IMG/VR virus record: IMGVR_UViG_2850761752_000002
Direction: 5' to 3' (one strand)
DNA: 13,719 bases
Origin: a virus
Taxonomy: Duplodnaviria; Heunggongvirae; Uroviricota; Caudoviricetes
Position numbers: made by a program. Numbering within the stretch: the first letter of the stretch is position 1; every line of letters starts with the position of its first letter. Below, one piece after another: positions 9,001 to 12,000 of the stretch.

Positions 9001-12000
9001 GAAAAACGGCCTTGAACTGAAAGCGCCTGTAACTGATGACATCAGCAGAGCACTGGCTTTTGCCATTAAGTGGGTGGCGGTCGGTGTTGCTGTGTCCCCG
9101 ATGCTGTATGGGCTGGCAAAACTGGTCATTGCGTTGAAATCGTGAAGGGAGGATTAAGCATGTCAGACAAACTCATAACGCTGGCGAAGATCCTCTGTGT
9201 AATTGTCGGCATTTCATTTTCACTAATGCTGGTTGCTCTTTTTCTTTCCATGGCCTGGATGATGTTGTCTTCGTCGGGGCTGCTGGGGTGAACATAAACC
9301 GAATGCTTTCCGCGTTTACCGTTATTCTGCTGGTGGTCTGTGGTGCGCTGTGGCTGGCAACAGACCATTACCGTGATAACGCCATCACCTACAAAGCGCA
9401 GCGCGATAAAAAAGCCAGAGAGCTGGAGCTGGCAAACGCAACCATTACTGACATGCAGCAGCGCCAGCGTGATGTTGCCGCTGGTCGTAAGCGCCTGCGG
9501 ATCAACGCCACCTGCTCCGGTACCGTGCGTGAAGCCACCGGCACCTCCGGAATGGATAATGCAACCGGCCCCCGACTGGCAGACACCGCTGAACGGGATT
9601 ATTTCACCCTCAGAGAGCGGTTGATGACAATGCAGAAGCAACTGGAAGGGGCGCAGGAATATATCCGCACTCAGTGTATTAACTAGTATTTTTGTTATCC
9701 GGAGAATGCATGAAGAAATTACTGGTAACCGTAAAGCCTTTTCAGGGAACAATTCCGTTCCGTATTTTGCAGCGTGGTCGTGTTCTTGTTGAAGGTTCGT
9801 TCAGTGGTAAATGTACGCAATTACACTCCCGGACCTTTCAGGTGAATGCCACGAATGAAGAGCTAACCGTTGAGTGTACGATGAATGCCGCTAAATGCCG
9901 CATGGTATCCGCTGCATTACAGCCAGTGTGTTGAGCGACCTTATTAACCATGCGCGGTATTGTCGCCGTATCCCCGCATTAACAGAGACCGCAGCCCGAC
10001 CGGGAGACTCCTCTGCGCGAGTGTGCGGGGATAATCAAAAACGATACACACCGGGGTTTACCGCGTTAACGGAGCGCGGCGTTGTCCCCTCATGGTCGCT
10101 GGTCCGGTGCGATGGTGGAAGAAACCGGACGATGTGTTACCTCGCAAGCTCTGTTATGTCATGTGTCTGATTTGTGATTTAAGTCGGATAATTGTCGTTG
10201 CCATTAAGCAGAGGATTGATGACCGACAGGGTGGCATTGTTAGAATAAGACTTATTCTTATCTGTGCCGGGAATGAAAATGAAAAGAAACCTTCCGTTAA
10301 TTATTTTGTTGTCTTCTCTGGTTATGGGCTGTACGCAACATAAAACAGATATGCCCCGACAGTTGGTTAAGGCATTACCACAATATCCGGCCTATGCAGC
10401 GGCAAATTATATAAAGGGACGGGTTGATGTGAAGTTTGATATTGGTGCTGATGGTACTGTCACCCGAATTGAGTTTATCCGTTCAGAGCCGCACCATTTG
10501 TTTGATGAGCAGGTTGTAAAGGCGATGGCAAAATGGCGATTTGAGAAGGACAGGCCGTGTAAAGGCGTGAAGAAAACGTTTATCTTTAGTCCTTCTGCAC
10601 CCTGATTATTTCATCAGAAATTAATTATCACTCTGTTGTTATTCTGTACATCCCGGCAGGGTAAGTCTTGTTCCGTCGGATATGAAGATGAAATATTGTT
10701 GGAGGACAGTGGGTACCTGCTCCTGTAACCGAACGTTCATTTCTCGTTATTTTTCATGCTGGCCGGGCGCAGATGCGTTGCATCTGTTGCCAGCCTTCTC
10801 CTGCAGGCTTCAATAACCCACGCTGAAAAGTTTCCTGAACCTTTCAGATCAAGAGCGATGTTAATTTGTTCAATCATCTGGTTTGGAAATCGGATGTTGC
10901 GGGTTGTTGTTCTGCGGGTTCTGTTCTTTGATGACATAATGTTTCCCCATATTCAGTGTTGCTGATTTGTATTATCTGAAGTTGCTTTTACGTTAATTTG
11001 ATGCAGATCAATCAATACGATAGTAAGCGTCAACGGAGCACCGTATTGACGCTTATTTATTGGTGAGTGCTACGTTCCATGGCAGGAGTTCGTCAACACG
11101 GTTGGAAGGCCATTCCGGCAGTACGCTCAGGATATAGCGCAGATACGCTTCCGGATCGATACCGTTCAGTCGGCAGGTGCCGATCAGCCCGTACAGTAGC
11201 GCACCACGCTCTCCACCGTGATCGCTGCCGAAGAACATAAAGTTTTTCTTTCCGAGACAGACTGCACGAAGCGCTCTTTCCGCGGCATTATTATCCGCCT
11301 CAGCCAGACCATCATCACTGAAGTTGCACAACGCAACCCAGTGCTTCCTGATATACCGGAACGCATCTCTCAGACGGCATTTTTTCGATAACGTGTGTTC
11401 TTTCTCCTGCATCAGCTTATACAGGGAAGTCAGTAGCGGTTTACTCTGCATTTGCCTGACCGCCAGGCGTTCAGACACCGGCAACCCGCGTATTTCGTGC
11501 TCGATGGCGTACAGCTCACCGATTAGTTTCAGGGCTTCTTCCGCTGTCGCGCTTTTGGTACTGATATATACATCGTGGACTTTGCGCCGCGCATGAGCCC
11601 AGCATCCTGCTTCCGTCAACGCGCCGCCTTCTCGTTCGGCACTGAACAGCCGATCGTAACCATTAAACGCATCTGCCTGCAGGATACCCCGGAAGGGACT
11701 AAGGTGCTGCTCCGGATGTTTACCCTGATGGTCCGGTGAGTAGGCGAACCAGACCGCCGGAGGCTCTGGCGAACCGGCATTCCTGTCATCCCGGACATAC
11801 GTCCAGATATATCCTGTTTTCGCCTTCTTCCTGCCCGGTGCCAGCACTTTTACTGGTGTGTCATCAGTGTGAACTTTGCGGCTGTTCATTACATAACGGT
11901 ACAGAGCATCATTCAGCGGCGTCATTAACTGGCAGCACGCGTCAACCAAGTTGGAGAGTAATGCACGGCTCAGTTCGACACCCTGACGGGCAAAAATTTC

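What the first reader, a model, noticed from the sequence alone, without database searches (positions are those of the whole stretch)
10737..11023. Solitary RHH-like gene abutting the IS66 terminus
The 66-aa product has a ribbon-helix-helix pattern (basic N-terminus, beta-strand NIRFPNQ, helix-turn-helix with GSGN turn). RHH proteins are commonly antitoxins or transcriptional repressors. Its upstream region ends at the IS66 end (11024) and only about 130 bp lie downstream, so no partner toxin gene remains. It may be an orphaned antitoxin or regulator whose partner was lost at the IS66 insertion, or the repressor acting on the palindrome upstream of the lipoprotein gene.
Basis: partly seen in the sequence, partly recalled or inferred. 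Interest (0 to 1): 0.4.

Follow-up and report, generated by a model that had tools for sequence, protein, structure and literature searches.

The report
Known small prophage DNA-binding gene (YlcI/YnfO)
This is an intact copy of a small, widespread lambda-type prophage gene of unknown function (YlcI/YnfO family) that sits in its normal place next to the phage DNA-packaging site, so it is an ordinary gene next to an insertion sequence and not the orphaned half of a toxin-antitoxin pair.

Summary
The 66-codon ORF at 10737-10937 (minus strand) is real. It passes the Pfam DUF3950 and NCBIfam YlcI/YnfO cut-offs, is 100% identical to copies in other prophages, and is under strong purifying selection (dN/dS about 0.03 against the lambda allele). 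A ribbon-helix-helix (RHH) fold is supported at modest strength.

The IS66-family end at 11024 is confirmed. Near-identical intact E. coli prophages show what the IS displaced: a lambda-type cos site and the small-terminase gene, not a toxin gene.

In 75 of 80 further loci the gene lies between the lysis cassette and the packaging module and points away from the packaging module. Phage lambda has a homologue about 200 bp from cos that the reference record does not annotate.

The dyad at 10242-10258 travels with the TonB-like lipoprotein gene, not with this gene. The orphaned-antitoxin and lipoprotein-repressor readings are therefore not supported.

The most likely role is a dimeric RHH DNA-binding regulator encoded against the direction of the late operon. 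Its target is unknown. The gene and its family are already known, and interest is low.

One side lead: relatives in phage satellites are fused to a copy of the helper phage's small-terminase DNA-binding domain.

The parts
10737..10937 (-). Intact 66-aa gene of the YlcI/YnfO (DUF3950) family
   Evidence: ORF list. Pfam PF13132 at 68.4 bits, NCBIfam NF041551 at 35.5 bits, phrog_949 at E 1.3e-32. 100% protein identity in seven IMG/VR loci. dN/dS about 0.03.
10788..10904 (-). Conserved RHH core, residues 12-50: predicted ribbon strand TRNIRFP, helix A (residues 19-32), GSGN turn, helix B (from residue 37)
10737..10787 (-). Variable C-terminal tail (residues 51-66) and stop codon; predicted disordered
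   Evidence: pLDDT below 50 for residues 60-66. At least six unrelated tail types follow residue 50, each linked to a different downstream module.
10938..11023 (.). Retained 86 bp upstream of the start codon; remnant of the gene-to-cos intergenic region
   Evidence: 89% identical to lambda J02459 up to position 48388. Identical to the intact ARS-C301 locus up to 11023. No consensus sigma-70 promoter on the minus strand.
11024..12451 (-). End of an IS66-family (ISEc23-like) element, itself interrupted by IS3; it replaces the cos and terS side of the locus
   Evidence: Homology break at 11023/11024. Transposase ORF 11053-12327 with DDE_Tnp_IS66 at E 4.4e-95. Terminal hairpin at 11024-11055. ISEc23 annotation of the matches. 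Extent to 12451 from the match to L012.
10279..10605 (+). Convergent neighbour: TonB C-terminal-domain lipoprotein gene (context only, not a partner)
   Evidence: Pfam TonB_C at E 1.4e-14. Annotated as a TonB family protein in intact loci. Absent from 25 loci that still carry the DUF3950 gene.
10242..10258 (.). Perfect 8-1-8 dyad AGAATAAGACTTATTCT that overlaps a -10-like TAGAAT of the TonB-like gene; it belongs to that gene
   Evidence: One copy in the window, 0 expected by chance. Promoter-like site at 10219-10246. Co-occurs only with the TonB-like gene.

Best explanation
Identity and location (shown, about 0.95). The ORF is an intact, ordinary member of the YlcI/YnfO (DUF3950) family. It is a small accessory gene of lambdoid prophages and always sits between the lysis cassette and the DNA-packaging module, on the strand opposite to late transcription. 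Here it is in its native position. An ISEc23-like IS66 element inserted 86 bp upstream of its start codon, about 113 bp short of where the cos nick site lies in intact relatives. That cut the gene off from cos and the terminase genes. Nothing that belongs to the gene itself was lost, and no toxin partner ever lay there.

Mechanism (inferred, about 0.6). The product dimerises as a ribbon-helix-helix protein. The paired strands (residues about 13-18, with N14 and R16 pointing outwards) would enter a DNA major groove. The Arg/Thr-rich N-terminal arm and the GSGN turn at the start of helix B would contact the backbone. The protein would then act as a small sequence-specific repressor or regulator, in the manner of P22 Mnt or Arc. 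Because it is encoded against the late operon and is transcribed in the K-12 cryptic prophage DLP12, it probably acts from the prophage state.

Its DNA target is not identified. The target is probably not an upstream operator of its own, because the two context types share no upstream sequence.
For: Family membership: and 100% identical copies.

Real gene: third-position substitutions dominate and dN/dS is about 0.03. The core is conserved down to 32% identity in distant members.

Native context: the intact loci ARS-C301 and CB6837 read TonB-like(+), YlcI/YnfO(-), cos, terS, terL, W, portal. Lambda carries a 64-aa homologue at about 48109-48303 on the minus strand, with no feature there in J02459. 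K-12 has ylcI-nohD and nohA-ynfO. Of 80 IMG/VR loci, 68 have HNH-TerS-TerL 41 bp upstream and divergent, and 7 have lambda-type cosN about 218 bp upstream.

Transcription in K-12: a ybcW-ylcI convergent overlap is seen in at least 50% of RNA-seq samples (PMC12288877).

Distant members sit alone on the opposite strand between the int/alpA genes and the replication operon of integrative elements, which is a typical place for a regulator.
Against: No experiment on any family member was found.

No consensus promoter was found for the gene, and no operator-like repeat is shared by the two upstream context types.

Whether the gene is still expressed in this window after the IS66 insertion is unknown.
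Confidence: 0.7

Rival explanations
1. Packaging-linked factor. The protein would act at or near the packaging start, either by binding DNA beside cos or by binding the small terminase. That could modulate cos cleavage, protect the prophage cos site, or exclude other phages.
For: The gene always lies next to the packaging module, with two unrelated module types: lambda cos/Nu1 and HNH/Terminase_2-type TerS. In PICI-like satellites, the DUF3950 domain is fused to a copy of the first ~50 residues of a Terminase_2 small terminase. Five protein clusters show this. That fused domain is 67% identical to the TerS of the prophage in which one such satellite is embedded. [quoted passage not shown]
Against: Of 76 lambda-like cos sites with enough left flank, 40 have no DUF3950 gene within 700 bp, so it is dispensable for cos packaging. 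The cos site as defined in the literature (cosQ, cosN, cosB, about 200 bp) does not include the gene (PMC4669245). The GATAAT-N-ATTATC palindrome beside cosQ also occurs without the gene. In HNH-type loci the gene is separated from the presumed cos by the HNH gene. In the fusions the RHH part may only supply dimerisation.
Confidence: 0.15
2. Regulator or antitoxin-like partner of a downstream DUF1398 gene (YdfO, YbcV, lambda p78). The copy in this window would then be a version that lost that partner by module exchange.
For: In Qin, ynfO is followed 58 bp later by ydfO on the same strand. All 16 sampled loci with the CSEKRVS-type tail have a DUF1398 gene directly downstream on the same strand. 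Seven loci with the lambda-type tail have it after an antisense ybcW. The tail type co-varies with the downstream module, as antitoxin tails do with their toxins.
Against: Most sampled loci, including every locus with this window's tail type, have no DUF1398 gene. No toxicity of DUF1398 proteins is reported; a paper cites YdfO overexpression as raising oxidative-stress resistance (PMC4077768). The tails are short and predicted disordered. The sample is biased towards close relatives of the query.
Confidence: 0.08
3. Repressor of the neighbouring TonB-like lipoprotein gene through the 10242-10258 dyad.
For: The dyad is perfect, unique in the window (0 expected by chance) and overlaps a promoter-like -10 element. 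RHH proteins commonly bind short dyads.
Against: The dyad follows the TonB-like gene (52 of 52 loci). It is absent from all 25 loci that carry DUF3950 without that gene, and from lambda, DLP12 and Qin. The RHH core is almost invariant in those dyad-less phages. No related dyad lies near the DUF3950 gene itself.
Confidence: 0.05
4. Orphaned type II antitoxin whose toxin gene was removed by the IS66 insertion.
For: The RHH fold is common in antitoxins. The best structural and profile matches include TacA, VapB12, ParD2 and HicB-like proteins.
Against: Intact loci with the same allele carry cos and terS beyond the insertion point, not a toxin gene. 68 further loci carry HNH-TerS-TerL there. A type II toxin gene normally lies downstream in the same operon, and here the downstream neighbour is a convergent lipoprotein gene. 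There are no PADLOC hits. The C-terminal tail is not conserved.
Confidence: 0.02

Closest known systems
YlcI (DLP12) and YnfO (Qin) of E. coli K-12; Pfam DUF3950 (PF13132), NCBIfam NF041551, phrog_949
   Same: Same family by all three profile libraries. Same size, same conserved NFS motif, and the same position and orientation next to the Nu1-type gene nohD/nohA. The N-terminal 50 residues are about 90% identical.
   Different: The C-terminal tail differs: ATDATHLRPASMKNNEK here, against the lambda/DLP12 and Qin tails. The downstream neighbour differs: a TonB-like gene here, against ybcW/ybcV or ydfO in K-12. Here the upstream cos and terS side is replaced by an IS66 element.
Unannotated 64-codon ORF at the right end of phage lambda (J02459 about 48109-48303, minus strand; ALA45744.1 in KT232076)
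   Same: 73% identical over the whole protein by the alignment tool, and 46 of the first 50 residues identical. The upstream DNA is 89% identical. Same distance to cosQ and cosN in intact relatives of this window.
   Different: Lambda keeps cos and Nu1 next to the gene. Its tail and downstream genes differ. No feature is annotated at this place in the reference lambda record J02459.
P22 Mnt and Arc (RHH repressors of the immI region)
   Same: Small phage RHH proteins. Mnt is likewise embedded in the late region, transcribed against it, and expressed from the prophage (my own knowledge). Three family members hit the Arc-like phrog_228, and the strand aligns in register with Mnt.
   Different: There is no significant direct sequence match (E 0.15). 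No antirepressor gene or operator is associated, and there is no Mnt C-terminal tetramerisation domain.
RHH antitoxins (TacA/DUF1778, VapB, ParD, C-terminal domain of HicB)
   Same: These are the best structural and profile neighbours.
   Different: No cognate toxin gene and no conserved toxin-binding tail.
Rpp of Gram-negative PICIs (redirects helper phage packaging)
   Same: A small mobile-element protein tied to the packaging start. The satellite DUF3950-TerS_N fusions resemble its logic of copying the TerS DNA-binding domain.
   Different: Rpp has a winged helix-turn-helix of the MerR/Nu1 type plus a coiled-coil dimerisation domain, not an RHH (PMC6739421). The two are not homologous.

Membership tests
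YlcI/YnfO family (Pfam DUF3950 PF13132; NCBIfam NF041551) | Score above the curated cut-off of the family models | tested here: met
   PF13132: 68.4 bits against a cut-off of 25. NF041551: 35.5 bits against a cut-off of 30. phrog_949: E 1.3e-32.
YlcI/YnfO family (Pfam DUF3950 PF13132; NCBIfam NF041551) | Conserved NFS motif and the core IRFP...NFSAWV.EAC | tested here: met
   N36-F37-S38 are present. I15, R16, I25, F37 and V41 are invariant across 21 members down to 32% identity.
YlcI/YnfO family (Pfam DUF3950 PF13132; NCBIfam NF041551) | Lambdoid prophage context: between the lysis and packaging modules, opposite to late genes | tested here: met
   The lysis genes and the TonB-like gene lie on one side. 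The packaging side is replaced by IS66 here but is present in intact loci.
Ribbon-helix-helix superfamily (Arc/MetJ/CopG) | Strand-helix-helix topology with a G-x-S/T/N turn before helix B | tested here: inconclusive
   AF2 places helices at 19-32 and 37-54, and the GSGN turn is present. The monomer model does not form the strand (residues 13-18) and has a helix at 8-13; mean pLDDT is 72.7.
Ribbon-helix-helix superfamily (Arc/MetJ/CopG) | Structural or profile similarity to established RHH proteins | tested here: met
Ribbon-helix-helix superfamily (Arc/MetJ/CopG) | Obligate dimer that binds DNA through the paired strands | not testable with these tools
No experimental data were found.
Type II toxin-antitoxin antitoxin | Cognate toxin gene adjacent in the same operon | tested here: not met
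   There is none in the window. There is none in the intact loci with the same allele, and none in the 80 IMG/VR loci screened with reference proteins. There are no PADLOC hits.
Type II toxin-antitoxin antitoxin | Conserved C-terminal toxin-neutralising region | tested here: not met
   The sequence after residue 50 is hypervariable, with at least six unrelated tails, and is predicted disordered.
PICI Rpp (redirecting phage packaging) | [quoted passage not shown] | tested here: not met
   The protein has 66 aa and an RHH-type model. The Rpp fold is described in PMC6739421.
P22 immI-type Mnt/Arc repressors | Pfam Arc domain, and an adjacent antirepressor gene with a palindromic operator | tested here: not met
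   No Pfam Arc hit even at E up to 10 for any of 21 members. No ant gene or operator lies next to the gene.

The most novel reading that the evidence does not exclude
The stand-alone DUF3950 RHH protein, including the unannotated 64-codon gene beside cos in phage lambda, may be a prophage-expressed factor that acts on the packaging start. It could bind DNA next to cos or pac, or the small terminase, to control or exclude packaging. The satellite proteins that fuse this RHH domain to a copy of the helper's TerS DNA-binding domain would be its weaponised form: a second, RHH-based way, besides Rpp, for satellites to hijack or block helper packaging.
Probability: 0.12. Interest if true: 0.6.

Novelty: already known. 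Interest (0 to 1): 0.15.

Why it matters
For this window it matters little. The gene is a routine, already annotated family member (RefSeq names the copy in the near-identical intact loci a 'YlcI/YnfO family protein'), and the IS66 insertion did not create an orphan. The useful outcome is negative: the toxin-antitoxin and lipoprotein-repressor ideas can be dropped.

More broadly, the family is a strongly conserved gene of unknown function. It is present in most E. coli genomes: 4174 of 5426 complete genomes match the 824-bp query that contains the gene. It is also present in phage lambda itself, right beside cos. If it proved to have a role in packaging control, or in regulating host or prophage genes from the lysogen, it would add a gene to one of the best-studied phage maps.

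Tried and rejected
1. PDB sequence searches with the protein and with the family profile found only chance hits (E about 1).

2. hhalign of the family alignment against Mnt, NikR, PutA and CopG gave the correct RHH register but E 0.04-0.29, which is not significant. I first checked that these four sequences, recalled from memory, are true members of their families.

3. Foldseek against the PDB and BFVD gave nothing with E below 1. The afdb50 library was not available.

5. The idea that the protein is related to PICI Rpp was rejected, because Rpp is a winged helix-turn-helix protein.

6. The TerI system of Listeria phages was read as a possible analogue. It has a different location and is not homologous, so it serves only as a conceptual parallel.

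7. I looked for an operator and found a perfect 15-17 bp palindrome (ATGATAATNATTATCAT) 6 bp left of cosQ. It, or imperfect versions of it, also occurs at lambda-like cos sites that lack the gene. It is therefore more likely part of the cos region than a specific operator. It is also lost from this window.

8. Simple promoter scans found no minus-strand sigma-70 consensus upstream of the gene in the window, lambda or ARS-C301. There is one weak site inside the HNH gene in the JLK-2012 type.

9. Literature searches for DUF3950, ylcI, ynfO, DUF1398, ydfO and ybcV found no functional study. The lambda ribosome-profiling paper and the lambda review I tried to open were not held.

10. An exact search for the gene/IS66 junction in one genome per species found nothing. 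No complete E. coli genome has this junction, so the source strain was not identified.

11. Rfam found no known RNA in the region.
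Full report
**What is there.** The minus strand of 10737-10937 holds an ATG-started ORF of 66 codons. Its product passes the curated cut-offs of Pfam DUF3950 (68.4 bits against 25; E 4.8e-19) and NCBIfam YlcI_YnfO_N (35.5 bits against 30). It also matches phrog_949 over its whole length (E 1.3e-32). Seven IMG/VR prophage contigs encode a 100% identical protein. The 824-bp segment that contains the gene is 99.9% identical to two E. coli prophages whose copy RefSeq names 'YlcI/YnfO family protein'.

**It is a real gene.** Over the first 50 codons, the lambda allele differs from the alleles found next to HNH-type packaging modules at 4-6 first, 0-1 second and 23-26 third codon positions. 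That gives dN of 0.04-0.06 and dS of at least 1.4, so dN/dS is about 0.03. An exhaustive HMMER scan of 1.84 billion cluster representatives found only 103 clusters. Many of these are error-ridden reads of lambda DNA, so the family is narrow and essentially enterobacterial. The genuine distant members (32-55% identity) keep the core K-x-IRFP-x-x-L-I-E-x-I...NFSAWV-x-[ED]-AC.

Aligned with the intact ARS-C301 locus, the window is identical up to 11023 and then starts GTAAGCG. An IS66-family transposase ORF follows at 11053-12327 (DDE_Tnp_IS66, E 4.4e-95). Its relatives in E. coli genomes are annotated ISEc23. Downstream of the gene, 131 bp separate its stop codon from the stop of a convergent gene for a lipoprotein with a TonB C-terminal domain.

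**What the IS66 element displaced.** In ARS-C301 and CB6837 the order is TonB-like(+), YlcI/YnfO(-), about 400 bp, then terminase small subunit(+), terminase large subunit, head-tail joining protein, portal and S49 protease. The 400 bp contain the lambda cohesive-end sequence GGGCGGCGACCT and the cosQ heptamer GGGTCCT. The insertion point corresponds to lambda position 48389, 113 bp before the cos nick. So the IS cut the gene off from cos and the packaging genes, not from a toxin gene.

**The position is conserved.** Phage lambda has a 64-codon homologue, MSTKNRTRRTTTRNIRFPNQMIEQINIALEQKGSGNFSAWVIEACRRRLTSEKRAYTSIKSDEE, at about 48109-48303 on the minus strand. The reference record J02459 has no feature there. 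E. coli K-12 has ylcI next to nohD in DLP12, and ynfO next to nohA in Qin. Among 80 IMG/VR loci, 68 have HNH, TerS and TerL starting 41 bp upstream and pointing away from the gene. Seven have a lambda-type cosN about 218 bp upstream, two carry IS66-related disruptions, and three are too short to judge. The lysis cassette is always on the other side. The gene is therefore solitary by nature, and in this window it sits where it always sits.

Other fold tests are weaker. Foldseek gave no significant hit, although NikR, ParD2 and Arc head its list. BFVD gave nothing significant. At the sequence level, 11 of 21 family members hit the RHH part of the HicB-like phrog_497 (best E 8.3e-5) and three hit the Arc-like phrog_228 (best E 6.8e-4). 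hhalign against single RHH sequences was not significant. It did align IRFPNQMIEQIN...GNFSAWVIE with NikR ITLDDDLLETLD...NNRSEAIRD in the canonical register. There were no PDB sequence hits. Taken together, RHH is clearly the best-supported fold, at modest statistical strength.

**Test of the orphaned-antitoxin reading.** A type II antitoxin needs an adjacent toxin gene and a conserved toxin-binding region, and neither is found. Intact loci have none on either side, and PADLOC gives no hits. The sequence after residue 50 is hypervariable. At least six unrelated tails occur, each tied to a particular downstream module. This shows that a recombination joint lies inside the gene at about codon 50, and that the tail is largely whatever follows the joint.

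One subset deserves a mention. With the CSEKRVS-type tail (as in Qin), a DUF1398 gene (ydfO) follows on the same strand in 16 of 16 sampled loci. With the lambda-type tail it follows after an antisense ybcW. That could be an operon, but nothing indicates toxicity, and this window's allele never has it.

**Test of the lipoprotein-dyad reading.** The 8-1-8 dyad at 10242-10258 is perfect, unique in the window (0 expected by chance) and overlaps a -10-like TAGAAT. It occurs in 52 of 52 loci with the TonB-like gene (49 exact, 3 with one mismatch). It occurs in none of 25 loci that have the DUF3950 gene without the TonB-like gene, and not in the lambda, DLP12 or Qin loci. The dyad belongs to the lipoprotein gene, and the RHH gene is kept almost unchanged without it.

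**Search for a target.** In lambda-type loci, a perfect palindrome ATGATAAT-N-ATTATCAT lies 6 bp to the left of cosQ, at 48452-48466 in lambda. I checked 76 lambda-like cos sites that had enough left flank. Of these, 36 have both the gene and a perfect palindrome, 6 have the palindrome without the gene, and many of the other 34 carry imperfect versions such as TGATAACCATTATCAT. The element therefore looks like part of the cos neighbourhood rather than a dedicated operator.

The same count shows that about half of lambda-like cos sites lack the gene, so it is an accessory gene and not a packaging component. The upstream sequences of the cos-type and HNH-type contexts share no motif, and simple scans find no consensus promoter. 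The ybcW-ylcI pair is listed among convergent overlapping transcripts seen in at least half of K-12 RNA-seq samples (PMC12288877). So at least the DLP12 copy is transcribed from a cryptic prophage.

**A lead outside the window.** One distant member, P0192, carries both DUF3950 (28.9 bits) and the first 50 positions of Terminase_2 (29.1 bits); both scores are above their cut-offs. The architecture recurs in five clusters that share 48-86% identity (P0192, P0219-P0222). The C-terminal domain is 65-78% identical to the N-termini of real small terminases of Morganella, Dryocola and Pantoea.

These genes lie in small int-alpA-primase elements of the PICI type, as the one gene on the opposite strand. 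In L213 the element is embedded in a prophage next to an HNH-TerS module, and the fused domain is 67% identical to that TerS over 55 residues. [quoted passage not shown] The fusions hint at a functional link between this RHH domain and the packaging start. Equally, the RHH part may only provide dimerisation.

**Mechanism, committed.** The product is most likely a dimeric RHH DNA-binding protein. The ribbon would be formed by residues about 13-18, with N14 and R16 facing the DNA. A basic Arg/Thr-rich arm and the GSGN turn would make backbone contacts. The protein would be made from the prophage against the direction of late transcription and would act as a small repressor or regulator. The following are shown: identity, integrity, selection, context and the IS boundary. 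The following are inferred: dimerisation, DNA binding and timing of expression. The target is unknown, and so is whether the 86 bp left upstream still drive expression here. The IS66 transposase gene runs in the same direction and could read through.

**Verdict.** The gene and its family are already known, its function is not, and nothing in this window is unusual beyond an IS insertion in a decayed, IS-ridden Stx-phage-like prophage.

Noticed in passing
L002 2441-2635 (-), equal to lambda J02459 about 48109-48303: Phage lambda has a 64-codon DUF3950 homologue about 150 bp left of cosQ. It is under strong purifying selection, yet the reference record J02459 has no feature at this place; some other lambda records call it a hypothetical protein.
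   Followed up: partly
L085 4714-5103; L213 9001-9429; L214 777-1148 (proteins P0192, P0219-P0222): A small subfamily of satellite (int-alpA-primase) proteins fuses the DUF3950 RHH domain to a copy of the N-terminal ~50 residues of a Terminase_2 small terminase. In L213 that domain is 67% identical to the TerS of the prophage in which the satellite is embedded. This may be an undescribed TerS mimic, analogous in logic to Rpp.
   Followed up: partly
L002 2784-2798 (lambda 48452-48466); L003 about 6887-6903: A perfect palindrome (A)TGATAAT-N-ATTATCA(T) lies 6 bp left of the cosQ heptamer GGGTCCT. Perfect or imperfect versions occur at most lambda-like cos sites, with or without the DUF3950 gene. 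It is not part of cos as described in the paper I read.
   Followed up: partly
L092 2757-3458 (Qin ynfO-ydfO); L091 3185-4446 (DLP12 ybcV-ybcW-ylcI): The C-terminal tail of the protein switches with the downstream module. With the CSEKRVS tail, a DUF1398 gene (ydfO type) always follows on the same strand, 58 bp away in Qin, which suggests a two-gene operon in that subset.
   Followed up: partly
window 10279-10605: The TonB C-terminal-domain lipoprotein gene best matches phrog_1267, which PHROGs labels 'Rz-like spanin'. Given the clear TonB_C hit and its position after the real Rz gene, the label looks wrong.
   Followed up: no
window 3150-3399 and 3476-3666: A tRNA-Met(CAT), tRNA-Arg(TCG), tRNA-Arg(TCT) cluster is followed by the sRNA STnc100 and then an esterase-like ORF (3889-4968). 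From memory, this is the layout of the late region of Stx-converting phages, but no stx genes are present.
   Followed up: no
window 5349-6562 (-) and 12506-13719 (+): Two IS3-family copies lie in inverted orientation, each with an ALIL frameshift pseudoknot (6165-6281 and 12787-12903). The second interrupts the IS66 element. An IS1 lies at about 1379-2076, and an ORF pair at 2078-3109 looks like a disrupted DNA methylase (my reading, not checked against a family library). The prophage is heavily decayed.
   Followed up: no
L012 2393-3910; L009 1-1043: Two IMG/VR contigs share this window's gene/IS66 junction but carry about 1.5 kb more, inserted at the very tip of the IS66 end (between window positions 11026 and 11027). 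This is probably a further IS.
   Followed up: no
NZ_CP014583.1 2086041-2086894 (hit H51): E. coli CFSAN004176 has an independent ISEc23-type insertion between a YlcI/YnfO gene and the terminase small subunit gene. The gene-to-cos spacer may be a recurrent IS66 target.
   Followed up: no
L095, L102, L104, L119, L131, L133, L169: Several viral contigs carry two lambda-type cosQ-cosN sites in inverted orientation, 550-900 bp apart. One of the two lies beside a terminator-like hairpin. These may be the paired cos sites of PICIs.
   Followed up: no
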